DNA from: Candidatus Hydrogenedens sp.
Lineage (GTDB): Bacteria > Hydrogenedentota > Hydrogenedentia > Hydrogenedentales > Hydrogenedentaceae
NCBI GenBank assembly: GCA_049968235.1
Contig: JBMFRC010000031.1
Span: 1-24,838 of the forward strand
Direction: 5' to 3'
Length of the DNA: 24,838 nt
Position numbers and translations under genes: made by a program. The notes under the pieces were generated by a model, which had not been told where the DNA came from, made no database searches, and was given only the letters and a program-made list of their open reading frames with translations. Positions within the stretch are counted from its first letter, which is position 1, and each line of letters begins with the position of its first letter. Shown in pieces: positions 1 through 21,605 of this stretch.

Positions 1-73
1 TGTAACCCATCATAATTTGTTGCTCCGATAAAGTTCTCTAAATGTCTTTTGGCAGACAGGTTCATTTTTATCC
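1..73 (-). CDS. Hypothetical protein, N-terminal fragment only (start codon near 73, gene runs off the 5' edge of the window)
   Basis: Minus-strand ATG at 71-73 preceded by AAGGGGA SD (rc of 78-84); reads MNLSAKRHLENFIGATNYDGL... with no stop before window edge. Too short to assign function. Confidence 0.3.
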
Positions 74-528
74 CCTTATATAATTGAGACATCTGAATAA
101 GTCATCCGAGTTAGGTAGTATATAAGGGATATTATATACGAGAAGTGGTAAGGGAAAAAATGAACCGAGAAGAGAAGCCATTGAGAGTTGAATAACAAAG
201 CAAGAAAAAACTAAAAATGAGGAAAGGTCAACGCAGTGTGTAAAAAAGATAAAGCAAATACTTTTTATAGATTATGAAATGTCCCATCAGAAACCGACCT
301 GTTGTAGGTGTTTTTTGAGACAGATGCAAGAGATAATACCATGGAAGGAATTTGAGCAGAGGTGCATAAAAAAAGGAGTATATAAGCGAACCGGGGAGAA
401 CGGAAACTTCCGTCCTTCCTATTTTGTGCATTGTTGAACAGTGCGTAATGATTTCTCTCATCGTGATTTTATCTCATAAAAACATATATAATTTATCCTC
501 TAACCCCTTGCACTAATTGTTCAGAGAT

Positions 529-1233
529 TTATATAGGTAATAAATCAAGAGGTGGTATTCTTCCCCAGACTTTTTCTATCGTGAAACCTTCTGCATAGAG
601 GGTCCCTGCCTGTAATCCCCGAAATTTGGCTGTGGTCTCTATCATGATAAATGGGTCTGTGATATGATGCCCTTTTAGCCATTTGTATTGGCTTTCATGG
701 CTTGCCAGCATTGCTTTTTTTGTCTCGAAGTATTCTGTTATATCAACATAAAATTCGGGTTGAGATTTAAGACCCAACAGTGTATCCATATAGTAAATGG
801 GTGTAATTTTTTCATGAGCGGGATATTCTGTTTTATAGTTTGGCAATGTTGCAGAAAAAGCAGAATCGAATACTAACTGCTGTGTGATGATATGGTCCGT
901 CATATAATCCTGTGGACTGTGAGTGATAATCAGGTCAGGACGGGCTTGTCGGACAATATCGGTTACTTTTGCTCGCATTTCTTGGGTGAACAGAACTCCT
1001 AAGTCATCGCAAACAGGACCCAAAACTTCAGCACCGATAATTTCCCCTGCTTTTTTCGCTTCATTATTACGGATTTCGGCTAATTGTTCCATTGGAATAT
1101 CTTTTCCGCCCATGTTCCCATTGCAAAGATGAGCCATAAAGACTTTGTGTCCCTTCTTTGCATATTTTGCTAATGTTCCTCCGCAGAGGATTTCCAAGTC
1201 GTCAGGATGAGCACCTATTGCTAAAATATTCAT
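529..1233 (-). CDS. PIG-L/LmbE family N-acetylglucosaminyl deacetylase (BshB/MshB-like)
   Basis: 234 aa ORF; N-terminal ILAIGAHPDDLEI motif characteristic of PIG-L (LmbE) zinc deacetylases; AGGGGA SD 8 nt upstream of ATG; 17-bp gap to upstream gene suggests operon. Confidence 0.8.
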   Translation of the reverse strand: MNILAIGAHPDDLEILCGGTLAKYAKKGHKVFMAHLCNGNMGGKDIPMEQLAEIRNNEAKKAGEIIGAEVLGPVCDDLGVLFTQEMRAKVTDIVRQARPDLIITHSPQDYMTDHIITQQLVFDSAFSATLPNYKTEYPAHEKITPIYYMDTLLGLKSQPEFYVDITEYFETKKAMLASHESQYKWLKGHHITDPFIMIETTAKFRGLQAGTLYAEGFTIEKVWGRIPPLDLLPI

Positions 1234-18485: not shown

Positions 18486-18860
18486 TAATAATTCCTCCAA
18501 AATAATTGTGGATTGTTATTAGAACAGATGTAATACAGACAAAAAAATATTATAAATGGTGTCATATTTATTATATAACAATACCATATTTCATAGCTAA
18601 AAGGGATAAGGGAAAGTTATGAGTTTTATAAAAAATGAAAATTTTTTATTAATTTTTTTTAATTATTTACAAAAAAAAAAAGCGACACTCTTAATTTGAT
18701 AAAAAATCTTCGCATATGATGCTTTGTAAACCCGCATTAATTGAGCCTGAAAACGATGTGGAATAATTGAAAAAGTTTTTAAAAAATTTTGTAACTTTTA
18801 ATTTGATTTTTCGTATTAAATTTTGTAACATTTTTACCAATTTAAATTAATATGCCTACA

Positions 18861-18986
18861 TATCTCCGTGTGATATGGAGGTGGCACAAGCCGACCCCAA
18901 GCCCTAAGCTCCGATAGTGAGGCGACCAGCGTAAGGCGGCAACGCGGTACCAACTAAACCATTAACCCTATAGGAGGGTTTATGAA
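18861..18986 (+). promoter_or_regulatory. GC-rich (about 55-60% GC) candidate structured 5' leader / possible riboswitch upstream of speH
   Basis: About 125 nt GC-rich island in an otherwise about 20% GC spacer, immediately upstream of the speH start; contains short hairpins (CTCC..GGAG at 18864-18879; CCCTataggAGGG overlapping the SD). No Rfam class recognised by eye. Confidence 0.3.
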
Positions 18987-19394
18987 TTGCACAAGGGCAT
19001 GCATCTTATTATCGATTGTCGGAATGTGTCGCGCGACCTATGCTTAAATGATAAGCTAGTGTTAAATGCGATGGCTCGTGCAGCAGAGAGAGCCGGCGCG
19101 ACTGTAATTTCACAAGTTCGTTACAAGTTTGGCAGTGATTCGCCCCCCGGATTTGCCGCCTTGGTTATGCTGGATGAAAGCCATTGCTCCGCTCATACCT
19201 ATGCGGATTTGGGACTCATTGCAATGGATATTTTCACCTGCGGGAAAACAGACCCTCGTGTCGTGTTTCGTTACATCCGTGAAGAATTGGATTTAGGCGA
19301 TGTTACGATTCGCGAATTGCCGAGGTTTTCTGTTCAGGAAGAAGATTCCTCCGCAATTACTAAAATTGAGTCCTTCGCAATGGTAGGACATTAA
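18987..19394 (+). CDS. speH: S-adenosylmethionine decarboxylase proenzyme (small pyruvoyl-dependent SpeH/SpeD type)
   Basis: About 130 aa; LDESHCSAHTYAD matches the SAMDC self-cleavage motif (E-S, Ser becomes pyruvoyl). TTG start 18987 is 8 nt from GGAGGG SD; alternative ATG at 18999. Confidence 0.8.
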   Translation: MHKGMHLIIDCRNVSRDLCLNDKLVLNAMARAAERAGATVISQVRYKFGSDSPPGFAALVMLDESHCSAHTYADLGLIAMDIFTCGKTDPRVVFRYIREELDLGDVTIRELPRFSVQEEDSSAITKIESFAMVGH

Positions 19395-19604
19395 TTATTT
19401 TTTTTCTAGGCTTAAGTGGATTATTCCATTTTCAGAATGGAGAAGTGTCTCTATTTTCATTTGAGATGGAATAAAAAATATATACACATAAGCAATGTAG
19501 TGGTGTGTCTGCCTTTATTCCTGGTAAATAAGTGTTTTCCAATAAAGGTATGTCATTCTAAATTATTTTTGTAAATTTAAGTCTTTCAAAGGAGAAAAAA
19601 AATA

Positions 19605-20681
19605 ATGAATCGCAAATTACATGATGGGCGACATGATGGGTTAATGCCTCTTGAAAGTTTAGACCTTTCTAAAGTCTATCGTTTCACTGATTTAATAAAA
19701 GCCATGCGAAAAACTTCTTTTGGTGGACGGACATTGGGGGAAGCCTTTGAAGTTTTATTGGAAATGTTTCGGGATGAAGATTGTACAGTTGTGTTGACAC
19801 TTTCCGGTGCAATGACCGTTGCAAAACAGGGAATGATTATCTGTGAAATGATAGACCGCGGTCTGGTTCAGGCAGTTATCGCAACCGGTGCATTAATTGC
19901 ACATGGTGTAACAGAAAGTATCGGTCTTACTCATTATGCCGTTAATCCGAATATTGATGATAAAGAACTATTTGAGAAAGGCTACAATCGTGTATATGAT
20001 ACCTTGGAGATGGAGGCAAATCTTAACGATGTATGTGAAGTAGTGGGACGAGTTCTGGATGAAGTTACACCGGAAGATGGTGTATGGTGTTCCCACCGTT
20101 TTTGTCGTGCGGTCGGTCAGGAATTAGAACGATTAAATCACGGGCCAGGGATATTAAGAAGTGCCTATCAGAAAAATGTGCCGGTATATATCCCCGCATT
20201 TACAGATAGCGAAATGGGTCTGGACTTCTCTACATGGGCAATGAAAAAAACTATCCAACAGAAACAAAACAAAAAATGGGACCCCGAAGAATTATTTCAA
20301 GCAGTTCCCAATTTTAACCCATTCCTGGACTTGCAACATTATGCTCGCTTAATTGGCAGGTCAAAACGGTTAGGTATTTTAACTATTGGAGGAGGTGTCC
20401 CACGTAATTGGGCTCAACAAGTCGGACCTTACTATGATATAACATCCGTTCGTTTGGATGTAGAGATACCACAACCTCGTTTCCAATATGGTGTTCGTAT
20501 TTGTCCGGAGCCTGTGCATTGGGGGGGATTGTCCGGTTGCACCTATTCCGAAGGCGTCAGTTGGGGTAAGTTTGTGCCTACCGAAGAAGGAGGGAGATAT
20601 GCAGAAGTCCTTGCAGACGCAACCATTATTTTACCTTTCCTGATGAAATGTGTGTTTGAGGAATTGGATAATGCTTCGTAA
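19605..20681 (+). CDS. Deoxyhypusine synthase family protein (divergent DHS-like; possible homospermidine synthase or related aminobutyl transferase)
   Basis: [23 protein letters not shown] aligns with human DHS [33 protein letters not shown] aligns with DHS [16 protein letters not shown] aligns with GGGVVKHH. AAAGGAG SD. Confidence 0.7.
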   Translation: [358 protein letters not shown]

Positions 20682-20693
20682 GGGAAATAAGGA

Positions 20694-21605
20694 ATGAGTC
20701 GAAAAATAGAATTTATGAATGAGAAAGAAAACTTTCTGGCTCTGTCCAGAGAATTTTCTCATCCCAACACCGCAAAGGTCATTATCCTACCCATCCCTTT
20801 TGAGAAAACTTCCACTTTTGGAAAAGGTTCAAAAAGAGGACCTGAAGCCATTATTCATGCATCGCATGAAGTTGAATTGTACGATACTGTTTTAGGATTT
20901 GAACCGTATCGGACTTGTGGAGGTATTGCCACATTGACACCTTTGAAAGTCAAAGAGCATTCCGGTGAAAAATTAGCAAAAGTGCTGGAAGAGAAAGTTA
21001 ACTATTGGCTGGAACAGGATAAGTTTGTTATTACAATAGGAGGAGAGCATTCAAGTATCATCGGTTCGGTATATGCTCATACAAAGAAGTATAAACCCAT
21101 TACAGTAATTCAACTGGATGCTCATAGTGATTTGCGAAGTTCCTATCTGGGTGAAAAATGGAACCATGCTTGTGCTATGGCACGGATTTTAGACCGTCAT
21201 GACGGAAATTTAGTTCAGATTGGAATACGAAGTGAAGCCCCCGAAGAACCTGCTATTATTAAAACATTAGGGAACCGAATATCTACTTTTTATGCTCATA
21301 AAATACACAAAGAAGGAGATAAAATATTTGCAAAGATTTTAAATGAATTGTCTGAATATGTATATATAACTTTCGATTGTGATGTCTTTGATCCGAGTAT
21401 CATCCCATCAACAGGAACACCGGAACCGGGAGGGTTATATTGGGAATGGGTTAATCGTTTTTTTGAGATACTTTCCCGCCACAAAAAAATTGTAGGATTT
21501 GATGTAAGTGAATTGAGTCCTATCCGAAATTTACATTACCCACAGTTCACAATTGCAAAAATGATATATCGCCTTATTGGATATACCTTCCCCGCTAAGA
21601 AATAA
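20694..21605 (+). CDS. speB: Agmatinase/ureohydrolase (arginase family)
   Basis: Arginase-family metal-binding motifs GGEHS, DAHSD, SFDCDVFDPS, GTPEPGG; 12-bp gap after DHS-like gene (operon). Confidence 0.85.
   Translation: MSRKIEFMNEKENFLALSREFSHPNTAKVIILPIPFEKTSTFGKGSKRGPEAIIHASHEVELYDTVLGFEPYRTCGGIATLTPLKVKEHSGEKLAKVLEEKVNYWLEQDKFVITIGGEHSSIIGSVYAHTKKYKPITVIQLDAHSDLRSSYLGEKWNHACAMARILDRHDGNLVQIGIRSEAPEEPAIIKTLGNRISTFYAHKIHKEGDKIFAKILNELSEYVYITFDCDVFDPSIIPSTGTPEPGGLYWEWVNRFFEILSRHKKIVGFDVSELSPIRNLHYPQFTIAKMIYRLIGYTFPAKK

What the first reader, a model, noticed from the sequence alone, without database searches (positions are those of the whole stretch)
18861..18986. GC-rich structured leader immediately upstream of SAM decarboxylase: candidate riboswitch or attenuator of an unrecognised class
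An island of about 125 nt and roughly 57% GC sits in a spacer of about 20% GC. It lies exactly between a promoter-like element and the speH start, with C-rich and G-rich tracts (CCGACCCCAAGCCC ... GGAGGG) able to sequester the SD. It includes a 10-codon uORF (18875-18907, MEVAQADPKP). Polyamine/SAM-pathway genes are frequent targets of cis-acting RNAs and uORF-based polyamine sensing. I cannot match it by eye to SAM-I/II, guanidine or other known classes.
Basis: partly seen in the sequence, partly recalled or inferred. Interest (0 to 1): 0.55.

Follow-up and report, generated by a model that had tools for sequence, protein, structure and literature searches.

The report
Conserved leader RNA before polyamine operon
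The GC-rich island is a real, strongly conserved and previously uncatalogued structured mRNA leader, probably a riboswitch-like translational switch, in front of a homospermidine (polyamine) biosynthesis operon in Hydrogenedentota and at least one other uncultivated bacterial lineage.

Summary
The island is real: 53% GC against 21% in the flanking spacer. Its centre (18890-18940) is a 51-nt hairpin with two almost invariant strands, GCCG-N-CCCCAAGC and GCGUAAGGCGGC. I found this hairpin upstream of the same gene in more than 50 distinct sequences, forming at least 17 divergent clusters from genomes and metagenomes. No Rfam 15 family matches it, and no paper describing it was found.

The two strands pair as P1, an internal loop, and an A-U pair that becomes G-C in two lineages. 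They enclose a variable hairpin, P2, that carries an anti-Shine-Dalgarno sequence. In most lineages the hairpin interior is complementary to the downstream leader, including the SD. Cognate halves pair better than swapped ones (p<1e-4), and anti-SD and SD co-vary. Enforcing the hairpin raises predicted SD accessibility in 11 of 17 clusters.

My best reading is a translational ON switch with an unknown effector. In the window's own lineage, however, the SD sits in a local hairpin in both states.

The 10-codon uORF is not conserved.

The downstream "speH" heads a speD-like/speY/speB cluster. It is therefore probably an arginine decarboxylase (SpeDA) of the agmatine-dependent homospermidine pathway, not a SAM decarboxylase. 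Ligand binding is untested.

The parts
18787..18833 (+). Conserved AT-rich upstream block with direct repeat TTTTGTAAC (18787-18795 and 18821-18829). It is a promoter or operator candidate. The transcription start is not defined.
   Evidence: The block is conserved in L001-L005 and L047 while the surrounding spacer varies. The simple sigma-70 scan finds no site.
18861..18883 (+). Lineage-specific 5' hairpin UAUCUCC / GGAGGUG with conserved loop GUGUGAUAU. The loop is complementary to AUUGCAC at the start codon (18985-18991).
   Evidence: The stem is kept through U-G to U-A changes (L003), or through use of a different 5' arm (L005). The loop-to-start pairing is only a prediction.
18890..18940 (+). 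Conserved core hairpin, the aptamer candidate.
- P1: 18890-93 pairs with 18937-40.
- Bulge: A18894.
- CC/GG: 18895-96 pairs with 18935-36.
- Internal loop: CCA 18897-99 opposite AA 18933-34.
- A18900-U18932 pair, with G18931 bulged.
- GC/GC: 18901-02 pairs with 18929-30.
- Weak variable P2: about 18908-18923.
- AAGCCCU 18899-18905 doubles as a distal anti-SD.
   Evidence: The covariance model R1 hits 18886-18944 at 52.1 bits, E=1e-8, and this is the only hit in the window. The same core occurs in more than 50 distinct sequences. RNAalifold predicts P1, CC/GG and GC/GC on its own. The A-U pair changes to G-C in L123 and L125.
18915..18956 (+). Alternative helix that excludes the core hairpin. 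UAGU-GAGG-CG-ACC-A-GCGU (18915-18932) pairs with ACGC-GGU-A-CC-A-ACUA (18942-18956). AAGGCGGCA (18933-18941) forms its loop.
   Evidence: It appears in the unconstrained minimum free energy (MFE) folds. The cognate duplex is -14.3 kcal/mol against a mean of -8.8 with non-cognate partners.
18960..18984 (+). SD hairpin: CAU-UAACCCU / AGGGUU-U-AUG with AUAGG in the loop. The SD GGAGGG lies at 18973-18978. An out-of-frame AUG lies at 18982-18984.
   Evidence: The stem is kept in L003 and L004 (AAACUCU/AGGGUUU) and in L005.
18987..19394 (+). speD/speH-like pyruvoyl decarboxylase gene with a TTG start. It is probably SpeDA (arginine decarboxylase) and is the first gene of the regulated operon.
   Evidence: Pfam AdoMet_dc. 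TIGR03330 scores 84.2 bits against a cut-off of 75.65. The operon context is shown and matches PMC10407285 and PMC13625781.
19605..21605 (+). speY-like deoxyhypusine-synthase homologue (19605-20681) and agmatinase-family ureohydrolase (20694-21605). These are the rest of the operon.
   Evidence: Pfam DS and Arginase. NCBIfam gives sub-threshold hits to '1,9-bis(guanidino)-5-aza-nonane synthase' and to a homospermidine biosynthesis protein. The same three genes follow the motif wherever enough DNA is available.

Best explanation
The island is the leader of the speD-like/speY/speB (homospermidine) operon mRNA. It contains an uncatalogued, conserved RNA switch.

Shown:
- A 44-82-nt hairpin has two near-invariant strands, GCCG-N-CCCCAAGC and GCGUAAGGCGGC.
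- These strands enclose a variable hairpin, P2, whose 5' side is an anti-SD.
- The hairpin lies 26-47 nt before the start codon of the same gene in many divergent lineages.
- In most lineages the hairpin interior (anti-SD, P2 loop, P2 3' arm, GCGU) is complementary to the downstream leader including the SD. The leader can therefore fold in two ways. One is the conserved hairpin with a free SD. The other is a long extended hairpin that buries the SD.

Inferred:
- An effector that recognises the conserved internal loop locks the hairpin as it is transcribed. This prevents the downstream strand from invading and turns translation ON.
- Without the effector, the more stable extended hairpin forms and the operon is OFF.
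- The effector is most likely a small molecule of this pathway. Arginine, the substrate, fits the ON logic best. Agmatine, G44G or homospermidine are alternatives.

In the window's own AT-rich lineage the two folds are nearly isoenergetic and the SD sits in a local hairpin in both. Here the output may instead work by freeing the A/C-rich stretch 18941-18962 as a ribosome standby site. That step is speculative.
For: Conservation: a pattern scan of metagenomes gave 84 stretches. About 60 lie directly upstream of the speD-like gene. Covariance-model scores for these are 47-74 bits, against 33 bits or less for chance pattern matches.

Loci found through the protein alone, so not biased by the pattern, also carry the core. 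16 of 30 genome loci have it, as do L120-L123, L125, L127, L128 and L130.

Structure:
- P1, CC/GG and GC/GC are predicted independently by RNAalifold.
- They form in the MFE fold of 41 of 46 isolated cores.
- A11-U43 becomes G-C in two lineages that are not sisters. L123's protein is 82% identical to L120's, which keeps A-U, and 72% identical to L125's.
- L122 and L127 keep a P1 in a shifted register.
- The covariation score is 0.066 against 0.053+/-0.004 in shuffles, with 0 of 500 shuffles as high.
- U-G pairs fix the strand.

Switching:
- Cognate interior/downstream duplexes average -24.2 kcal/mol against -20.0 for swapped partners, over 17 clusters (permutation p<1e-4).
- The result holds without the SD part: -9.9 against -8.3, p=0.0015.
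- Anti-SD and SD co-vary: CCUCCCU:AGGGAGG, CCUCCUC:GAGGAGG, and NCCCCCC:GGGGGGN'.
- Enforcing the hairpin raises SD unpaired probability from 0.25 to 0.44. It rises in 11 of 17 clusters and falls in none (Wilcoxon p=3e-4).

Other points: no intrinsic terminator is present. Gene association is constant. There is no Rfam match in any lineage.
Against: - No ligand binding or expression data exist.
- P1 and most loop nucleotides are invariant, so classical covariation support for the core rests on one A-U/G-C pair, a register-shifted P1 and heterogeneous P2 helices.
- Part of the sample was retrieved with a pattern that fixed those bases.
- The extended hairpin is 2-13 kcal/mol more stable than the hairpin state, so the model needs kinetic, co-transcriptional control.
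- An ON switch on a biosynthetic operon is less usual than product feedback.
- In the window's own lineage, enforcing the hairpin does not change predicted SD accessibility (0.21 to 0.21).
- Closely related Hydrogenedentota (proteins 78-87% identical) use an unrelated leader.
- Isolated cores are only weakly more stable than shuffles (mean z = -0.95).
Confidence: 0.5

Rival explanations
1. Protein-dependent translational operator. The same two-state leader is used, but the invariant hairpin is the binding site of a protein rather than of a metabolite. Candidates are an operon product acting autogenously, or in some lineages the co-encoded basic/acidic 90-aa protein.
For: Sequence invariance of both helix strands across lineages with about 60% protein identity is more typical of sequence-specific protein recognition than of a plain helix. 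Type II operons encode a small protein with a basic N-half and a hyper-acidic C-half. In L037 the motif sits directly in front of that gene.
Against: The small protein is absent from Hydrogenedentota operons, including the window. No RNA-binding domain is found in any operon protein. Small riboswitch aptamers can also be nearly invariant (general knowledge).
Confidence: 0.22
2. OFF switch. The effector, for example the end product homospermidine, stabilises a fold in which the anti-SD pairs with the SD. This could be a P1-containing pseudoknot or the extended hairpin itself. The local P2 hairpin would then represent the ligand-free ON state.
For: Product feedback is the expected logic for a biosynthetic operon, and the only validated spermidine riboswitch is an OFF switch (PMC10853860). 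A pseudoknot between the anti-SD inside P1 and the SD outside it is topologically possible (inference).
Against: The downstream leader is also complementary to the P2 3' arm and to GCGU. This pairing destroys P1b and P2 and leaves the invariant strands as a single-stranded tail and a hairpin loop, which is an unlikely pocket. P1 together with the alternative helix would need loops of 1-3 nt to span 6-7 bp in the window and in L008 (reasoned from the sequences).
Confidence: 0.12
3. Non-sensing structured leader. The hairpin and SD occlusion only set a constitutive translation level or mRNA stability. The core is conserved for some other reason, such as RNase or ribosome standby recognition. UAAGGCGG differs from the extended SD UAAGGAGG by one base.
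For: The MFE state buries the SD in most lineages. The conserved 3' strand is SD-like (sequence). In the window lineage no change in SD exposure is predicted.
Against: The model gives no reason for two mutually complementary invariant strands plus a co-evolving, mutually exclusive alternative pairing that is kept in at least 17 divergent clusters. The motif is retained in front of a different first gene after speD decay in L034, L037 and L038.
Confidence: 0.12
4. uORF/leader-peptide attenuation. Translation of MEVAQADPKP (18875-18907) senses polyamines, as proposed by the first reader.
For: The ORF exists in the window and, with 2 substitutions, in L001 and L002.
Against: 1-nt indels shift the frame in L003, L004 and L005. 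No equivalent ORF exists in the other lineages. Core lengths take every value from 44 to 55 nt, so there is no 3-nt periodicity. There is no SD before the AUG.
Confidence: 0.02

Closest known systems
Spermidine riboswitch (SAM-I variant; Salvail et al. 2023, PMC10853860)
   Same: It is a cis-acting leader RNA in front of polyamine biosynthesis genes. That paper explicitly predicts that further polyamine-related classes exist.
   Different: It has the four-stem SAM-I fold, occurs in Firmicutes, and switches OFF by transcription termination. Here the RNA is a single irregular hairpin with no SAM-I (Rfam) match, has no terminator, and has a predicted translational ON logic. It occurs in Hydrogenedentota and unassigned lineages, and the operon makes homospermidine from arginine.
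Small translational riboswitches that trade an anti-SD between alternative helices, such as the add adenine riboswitch (ON), SAM-III/SMK box and guanidine-III (from general knowledge)
   Same: It is a compact aptamer next to the SD. SD:anti-SD pairing competes with an aptamer helix, and the regulation is translational.
   Different: There is no sequence or structural match to any of them (Rfam). Here the anti-SD lies inside the variable P2, and the whole aptamer interior is mirrored by the downstream leader. The ligand is unknown.
   Same: They are leaders of a polyamine-pathway decarboxylase gene.
   Different: Those act through a conserved nascent peptide. Here no peptide is conserved.
SpeDA-SpeY-SpeB homospermidine gene clusters (Li et al. 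2023, PMC10407285; Li et al. 2026, PMC13625781)
   Same: The gene content matches: a speD homologue, a deoxyhypusine-synthase homologue and an agmatinase homologue.
   Different: Those papers describe the enzymes. A term search found no mention of riboswitches in PMC13625781, and the term searches of PMC10407285 turned up no RNA leader. Hydrogenedentota were not among the tested phyla.

Membership tests
Riboswitch (generic definition) | Conserved structured domain in the 5' leader, in constant orientation and at constant distance from the regulated gene | tested here: met
   The core lies 26-47 nt before the start codon in more than 50 distinct sequences. Covariance-model scores are 47-74 bits, against 33 or less for chance hits.
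Riboswitch (generic definition) | Secondary structure supported by compensatory base changes | tested here: inconclusive
   P1 and GC/GC are invariant. One A-U to G-C pair changes in two non-sister lineages, P1 is register-shifted in L122 and L127, and P2 helices are heterogeneous. The covariation score exceeds 500 of 500 shuffles, but the sequences are related.
Riboswitch (generic definition) | Expression platform with a mutually exclusive alternative structure that controls the SD or a terminator | tested here: met
   This rests on computation only: the swap tests, anti-SD/SD co-variation, and a rise in SD accessibility in 11 of 17 clusters. It is not seen in the window's own lineage.
Riboswitch (generic definition) | Direct, selective binding of a small-molecule ligand | not testable with these tools
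   Needs in-line probing, ITC or reporter assays.
Spermidine riboswitch / SAM-I family (RF00162) | Four-stem junction matching the SAM-I consensus; terminator expression platform | tested here: not met
   No Rfam hit at gathering score, or at E<=10, in the window or in other lineages. No terminator is found.
Other SAM, SAH, guanidine, preQ1 etc. classes in Rfam 15 | Match to the family covariance model | tested here: not met
   The only hits are unrelated chance matches far below gathering scores, plus tRNAs elsewhere in the loci.
Leader-peptide (uORF) attenuators | Conserved, translatable short ORF in the leader | tested here: not met
   The frame is broken in L003, L004 and L005. The ORF is absent elsewhere, and core lengths are not multiples of 3.
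SpeDA (AdoMetDC homologue turned arginine decarboxylase), for the downstream gene | speD homologue clustered with speY and speB/aguA | tested here: met
   The cluster type is described in PMC10407285 and PMC13625781.
SpeDA (AdoMetDC homologue turned arginine decarboxylase), for the downstream gene | No spermidine synthase or canonical ADC/ODC in the genome; arginine decarboxylase activity and no AdoMetDC activity | not testable with these tools
   Only a 24.8-kb contig is available. The protein still passes the AdoMetDC equivalog TIGR03330. One related locus (L128) has a Spermine_synth-domain gene next door.
11-nt GNRA-tetraloop receptor (CCUAAG/UAUGG; definition recalled from memory) | Receptor sequence plus a GNRA loop partner | tested here: not met
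   The core reads CCCAAG / GUAAGG, with CCUAAG only in L067 and L085. No conserved GNRA loop is present in P2. This is a resemblance only.

The most novel reading that the evidence does not exclude
This is the first representative of a new riboswitch class. Its small internal-loop aptamer would sense a metabolite of the arginine/agmatine/homospermidine pathway, with arginine or agmatine fitting the ON logic best. It would switch on translation of the SpeDA-SpeY-SpeB operon in Hydrogenedentota and other candidate phyla. Sister leader types upstream of the same gene (group B, and the L124/L025 type) may be further classes for the same ligand.
Probability: 0.35. Interest if true: 0.85.

Novelty: new variant of a known kind. 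Interest (0 to 1): 0.62.

Why it matters
Only one polyamine-sensing riboswitch class has been validated. It is a rare SAM-I variant in Firmicutes, and its authors expect more classes to exist. No natural riboswitch for arginine, agmatine or homospermidine is known to me.

This motif gives a compact candidate of about 50 nt with clear mutational targets: A18900-U18932, the loop As, the bulged G, and P1. Its pathway context was biochemically defined only in 2023-2026.

The result also flags that the "SAM decarboxylase" annotation of this gene in Hydrogenedentota is probably functionally wrong. In addition, several unrelated structured leaders precede the same gene in neighbouring lineages. That pattern is typical of important regulatory nodes.

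Tried and rejected
- **Rfam 15.** I scanned the whole window at gathering score, the region at E<=10, 17 related loci, and two other subtypes at E<=10. Nothing relevant was found.
- **uORF.** Rejected because the frame is not conserved.
- **Single-sequence thermodynamics.** The island (z = -1.37) and the isolated cores (mean z = -0.95) are not informative.
- **Homology of group B, Sumerlaeota and Planctomycetota leaders to the motif.** The covariance model finds nothing at E<=10, so I treat them as different leaders.
- **Covariation inside the pattern-derived alignment.** P1 is invariant by construction. Protein-anchored loci were needed to test it.
- **Pairing of bulge N plus CCC with the GGGN Gly codon at the start of the gene.** By eye, from the sequences, there is no consistent covariation.
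- **Extension of P1 into its flanks.** The flanks do not pair consistently.
- **P1 coexisting with the alternative helix as a pseudoknot.** The connecting loops are too short in the window and in L008 (reasoning from the sequences).
- **Tetraloop-receptor resemblance.** There is no GNRA partner.
- **Promoter and terminator scans.** No sites were found.
- **Literature.** Searches for speH, polyamine, dcSAM, homospermidine or Hydrogenedentes together with riboswitch found no description of this RNA.
- **Taxonomy of the type II lineage.** The nearest named relatives are only 64-66% identical (Krumholzibacteria).

Full report
**1. The observation**

Positions 18861-18986 are 53% GC. They sit inside a 21% GC spacer (18501-18860), between a divergently transcribed Gfo/Idh/MocA oxidoreductase gene and a speD/speH-like gene. 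The 51-nt centre, 18890-18940, is 67% GC.

The gene starts at TTG 18987, 8 nt after the SD GGAGGG (18973-78). The public annotation of this contig uses the internal ATG instead. The contig is from a Candidatus Hydrogenedens sp. MAG (protein P0052).

The 10-codon uORF (18875-18907) is present. The fold of the island alone is not exceptional (z = -1.37). Rfam 15 has no match at gathering score or at E<=10.

**2. Comparative evidence that a motif exists**

A protein-anchored search of one genome per species returned 30 loci with relatives of the gene, mostly Hydrogenedentota. In 16 of them the leader contains the same two blocks, GCCG-N-CCCCAAGC and GCGUAAGGCGGC. A variable segment separates the blocks.

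A pattern built from these blocks found 84 stretches in metagenome contigs. About 60 of them lie 26-47 nt before the start codon of the same gene. The rest are chance hits in GC-rich coding DNA.

A covariance model separates the two groups cleanly: 47-74 bits against 33 bits or less. In the window it finds exactly one copy, at 18886-18944 (52.1 bits).

Further loci reached only through the protein also carry the core, so the fixed pattern did not bias them. These include variants the pattern could not have found:
- L120 and L121 have a P2 that is 27 nt longer.
- L123 and L125 read CCCCAGGC...GCGCAAGG.
- L122 and L127 have an altered 5' strand.

The carriers fall into at least 17 clusters at less than 80% leader similarity. 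Their proteins are as little as about 60% identical.

No Rfam family matches any subtype. Literature searches found no description of this RNA.

**3. Anatomy of the core**

The two conserved strands are complementary. In window coordinates:

| Element | Positions |
|---|---|
| P1, GCCG/CGGC | 18890-93 with 18937-40 |
| Variable bulged nucleotide | 18894 |
| CC/GG | 18895-96 with 18935-36 |
| Internal loop | CCA 18897-99 opposite AA 18933-34 |
| A-U pair | 18900 with 18932 |
| Bulged G | 18931 |
| GC/GC | 18901-02 with 18929-30 |
| Variable hairpin P2 | about 18908-18923 |

Support for this structure:
- RNAalifold predicts P1, CC/GG and GC/GC on its own.
- These helices are the MFE of 41 of 46 isolated cores.

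Because these nucleotides are almost invariant, classical covariation is scarce. What there is points the right way:
- The A-U pair is G-C in both L123 and L125. These two are not sister lineages. L123's protein is 82% identical to that of L120, which keeps A-U, and 72% identical to L125's.
- C-G becomes U-G in two sequences. This also fixes the strand.
- L122 and L127 replace GCCG-N-CC by GCGAGCC, which can still pair with GGC..CGC in a shifted register.
- P2 is built from different sequences in different lineages: CUCC/GGAG, UUCCUU/AAGGAG, GAGC/GCUC, GCUCC/GGAGC, CUG..CC/GG..CAG and GUCC/GGAC.
- On the 52-sequence alignment the covariation score exceeds all 500 shuffles, and four pairs show double changes. 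The caveat is that the sequences are related.

**4. The expression platform**

In every subtype the 5' side of P2 is an anti-SD, and it tracks the local SD:

| Anti-SD | SD |
|---|---|
| CCUCCCU | AGGGAGG |
| CCUCCUC | GAGGAGG |
| (U/A/C)CCCCCC | GGGGGG(A/U/G) |

Beyond the SD, the rest of the hairpin interior is mirrored by the sequence between P1 and the SD. This covers the P2 loop, the P2 3' arm, the joining strand and GCGU. The unconstrained MFE of most leaders is therefore one long hairpin with AAGGCG(GC) in its apical loop and the SD buried.

Swap tests show that this complementarity is selected:
- Cognate upstream/downstream halves give -24.2 kcal/mol against -20.0 for non-cognate pairs (p<1e-4).
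- The effect persists when the SD:anti-SD part is left out (-9.9 against -8.3, p=0.0015).

The extended hairpin and the conserved hairpin are mutually exclusive. Forcing the conserved hairpin raises the SD's unpaired probability from 0.25 to 0.44 on average. It rises in 11 of 17 clusters and falls in none (p=3e-4). No terminator is present.

The extended fold is 2-13 kcal/mol more stable, so any effector would have to act kinetically during transcription.

**5. The window's own lineage**

Here the alternative helix is clear. Positions 18915-18932 pair with 18942-18956, at -14.3 kcal/mol against -8.8 for non-cognate partners. The two states are nearly isoenergetic.

However, the SD lies in a local hairpin (18960-18984) in both states, so predicted SD exposure does not change. 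A lineage-specific 5' hairpin (18861-18883) has a conserved loop that is complementary to the start-codon region.

How the switch is read out in this lineage is therefore not resolved. One possibility is that the hairpin state frees the A/C-rich stretch after the core as a ribosome standby site. That is conjecture.

**6. What is regulated**

Wherever enough DNA is available, the motif is followed by three genes:
- the speD-like gene;
- a deoxyhypusine-synthase homologue;
- an agmatinase-family gene.

The order is speD-DS-agmatinase in Hydrogenedentota. In the CCCCCC/GGGGGG subtype the order is speD-(small charged protein)-agmatinase-DS.

This is the SpeDA-SpeY-SpeB cluster. SpeDA is an AdoMetDC homologue turned arginine decarboxylase. 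SpeY couples two agmatines to N1,N9-bis(guanidino)homospermidine (G44G). A ureohydrolase then yields homospermidine (PMC10407285, PMC13625781). The DS homologue gives sub-threshold NCBIfam hits to exactly that synthase.

So the "SAM decarboxylase" label is probably functionally wrong. The protein does still pass TIGR03330, and its activity was not testable here.

In L034, L037 and L038 the speD-like gene has decayed or is absent. There the motif precedes the small charged protein gene, followed by PALP, DUF1611 and creatininase-fusion genes.

**7. Mechanism and rivals**

Best-supported model (confidence about 0.5): a riboswitch-like translational ON switch. An effector bound to the conserved internal loop locks the hairpin and keeps the SD free. 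The effector is unknown. Arginine fits substrate induction. Agmatine, G44G or homospermidine are alternatives.

Rivals:
- a protein-binding operator using the same two states (0.22);
- an OFF switch in which the effector favours SD:anti-SD pairing (0.12);
- a non-sensing structured leader (0.12);
- the uORF model (0.02), which is contradicted by frame shifts in L003, L004 and L005 and by its absence elsewhere.

**8. Comparison and novelty**

The only validated spermidine riboswitch is a four-stem SAM-I variant that terminates transcription in Firmicutes (PMC10853860). The present RNA shares only the pathway theme with it. It works like small SD-sequestering translational riboswitches but is a member of none of them (membership table).

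I rate it a new RNA family of a known kind of system. It is well supported as a conserved regulatory leader. It is plausible but unproven as a riboswitch.

Noticed in passing
window 18982-18989; also L001-L131 start regions: An out-of-frame AUG lies 5 nt before the UUG/GUG start (AUGnnUUG or AUGnnGUG). It is conserved across Hydrogenedentota, the type II lineage and Sumerlaeota. It opens only a 9-21-codon overlapping ORF. The public annotation of the window's gene starts at the internal ATG 18999 instead of TTG 18987.
   Followed up: partly
L006, L007, L010, L011, L014, L017, L019, L021, L022 (about 140 nt upstream of the gene): A second, unrelated GC-rich structured leader (GGACCCCCCCGAACGGG...GCGUCCGUCCGGUAAAC) precedes speD-like genes that are 78-87% identical to motif carriers. 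RNAalifold finds 8 pairs with compensatory changes. The covariance model of the main motif does not hit it.
   Followed up: partly
L124 1400-1500, L131 500-600, L025 2890-3000: A third hairpin type, GCCGYC-RCCCG...CGGGU-CAAA-GRCGG, sits upstream of the same gene. It shows a U-A to C-G change between L124 and L131. It may be a distant relative of the main motif, since it shares the 5' GCCG and the 3' AAAG(G/A)CGG. Sumerlaeota (L115-117) and L118/L119 have yet other leaders.
   Followed up: partly
L066 +440..719 after the motif; L099, L110, L064, L088, L105, L056; L037 +71..332: An approximately 90-aa protein with no Pfam match has a basic N-terminal half and an extremely acidic C-terminal half. 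It is encoded between the speD-like and agmatinase-like genes in type II operons. In L037 it directly follows the motif, ahead of PALP, DUF1611 and creatininase-fusion genes.
   Followed up: partly
window 18787-18833: A direct repeat TTTTGTAAC (18787-95 and 18821-29) lies in a block conserved among close relatives inside an otherwise variable AT-rich spacer. It is a promoter or operator candidate. The simple sigma-70 scan finds no site.
   Followed up: partly
L128 1-256: A 965-aa protein with a Spermine_synth domain is encoded immediately upstream of a motif-bearing speD-like/DS pair. This shows that the SpeDA assignment may not hold for every carrier.
   Followed up: no
window 19395-19604: The window lineage has a 210-nt, 27% GC spacer between the speD-like and speY-like genes. 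In most other lineages this spacer is about 20-90 nt. I did not examine it for structure.
   Followed up: no
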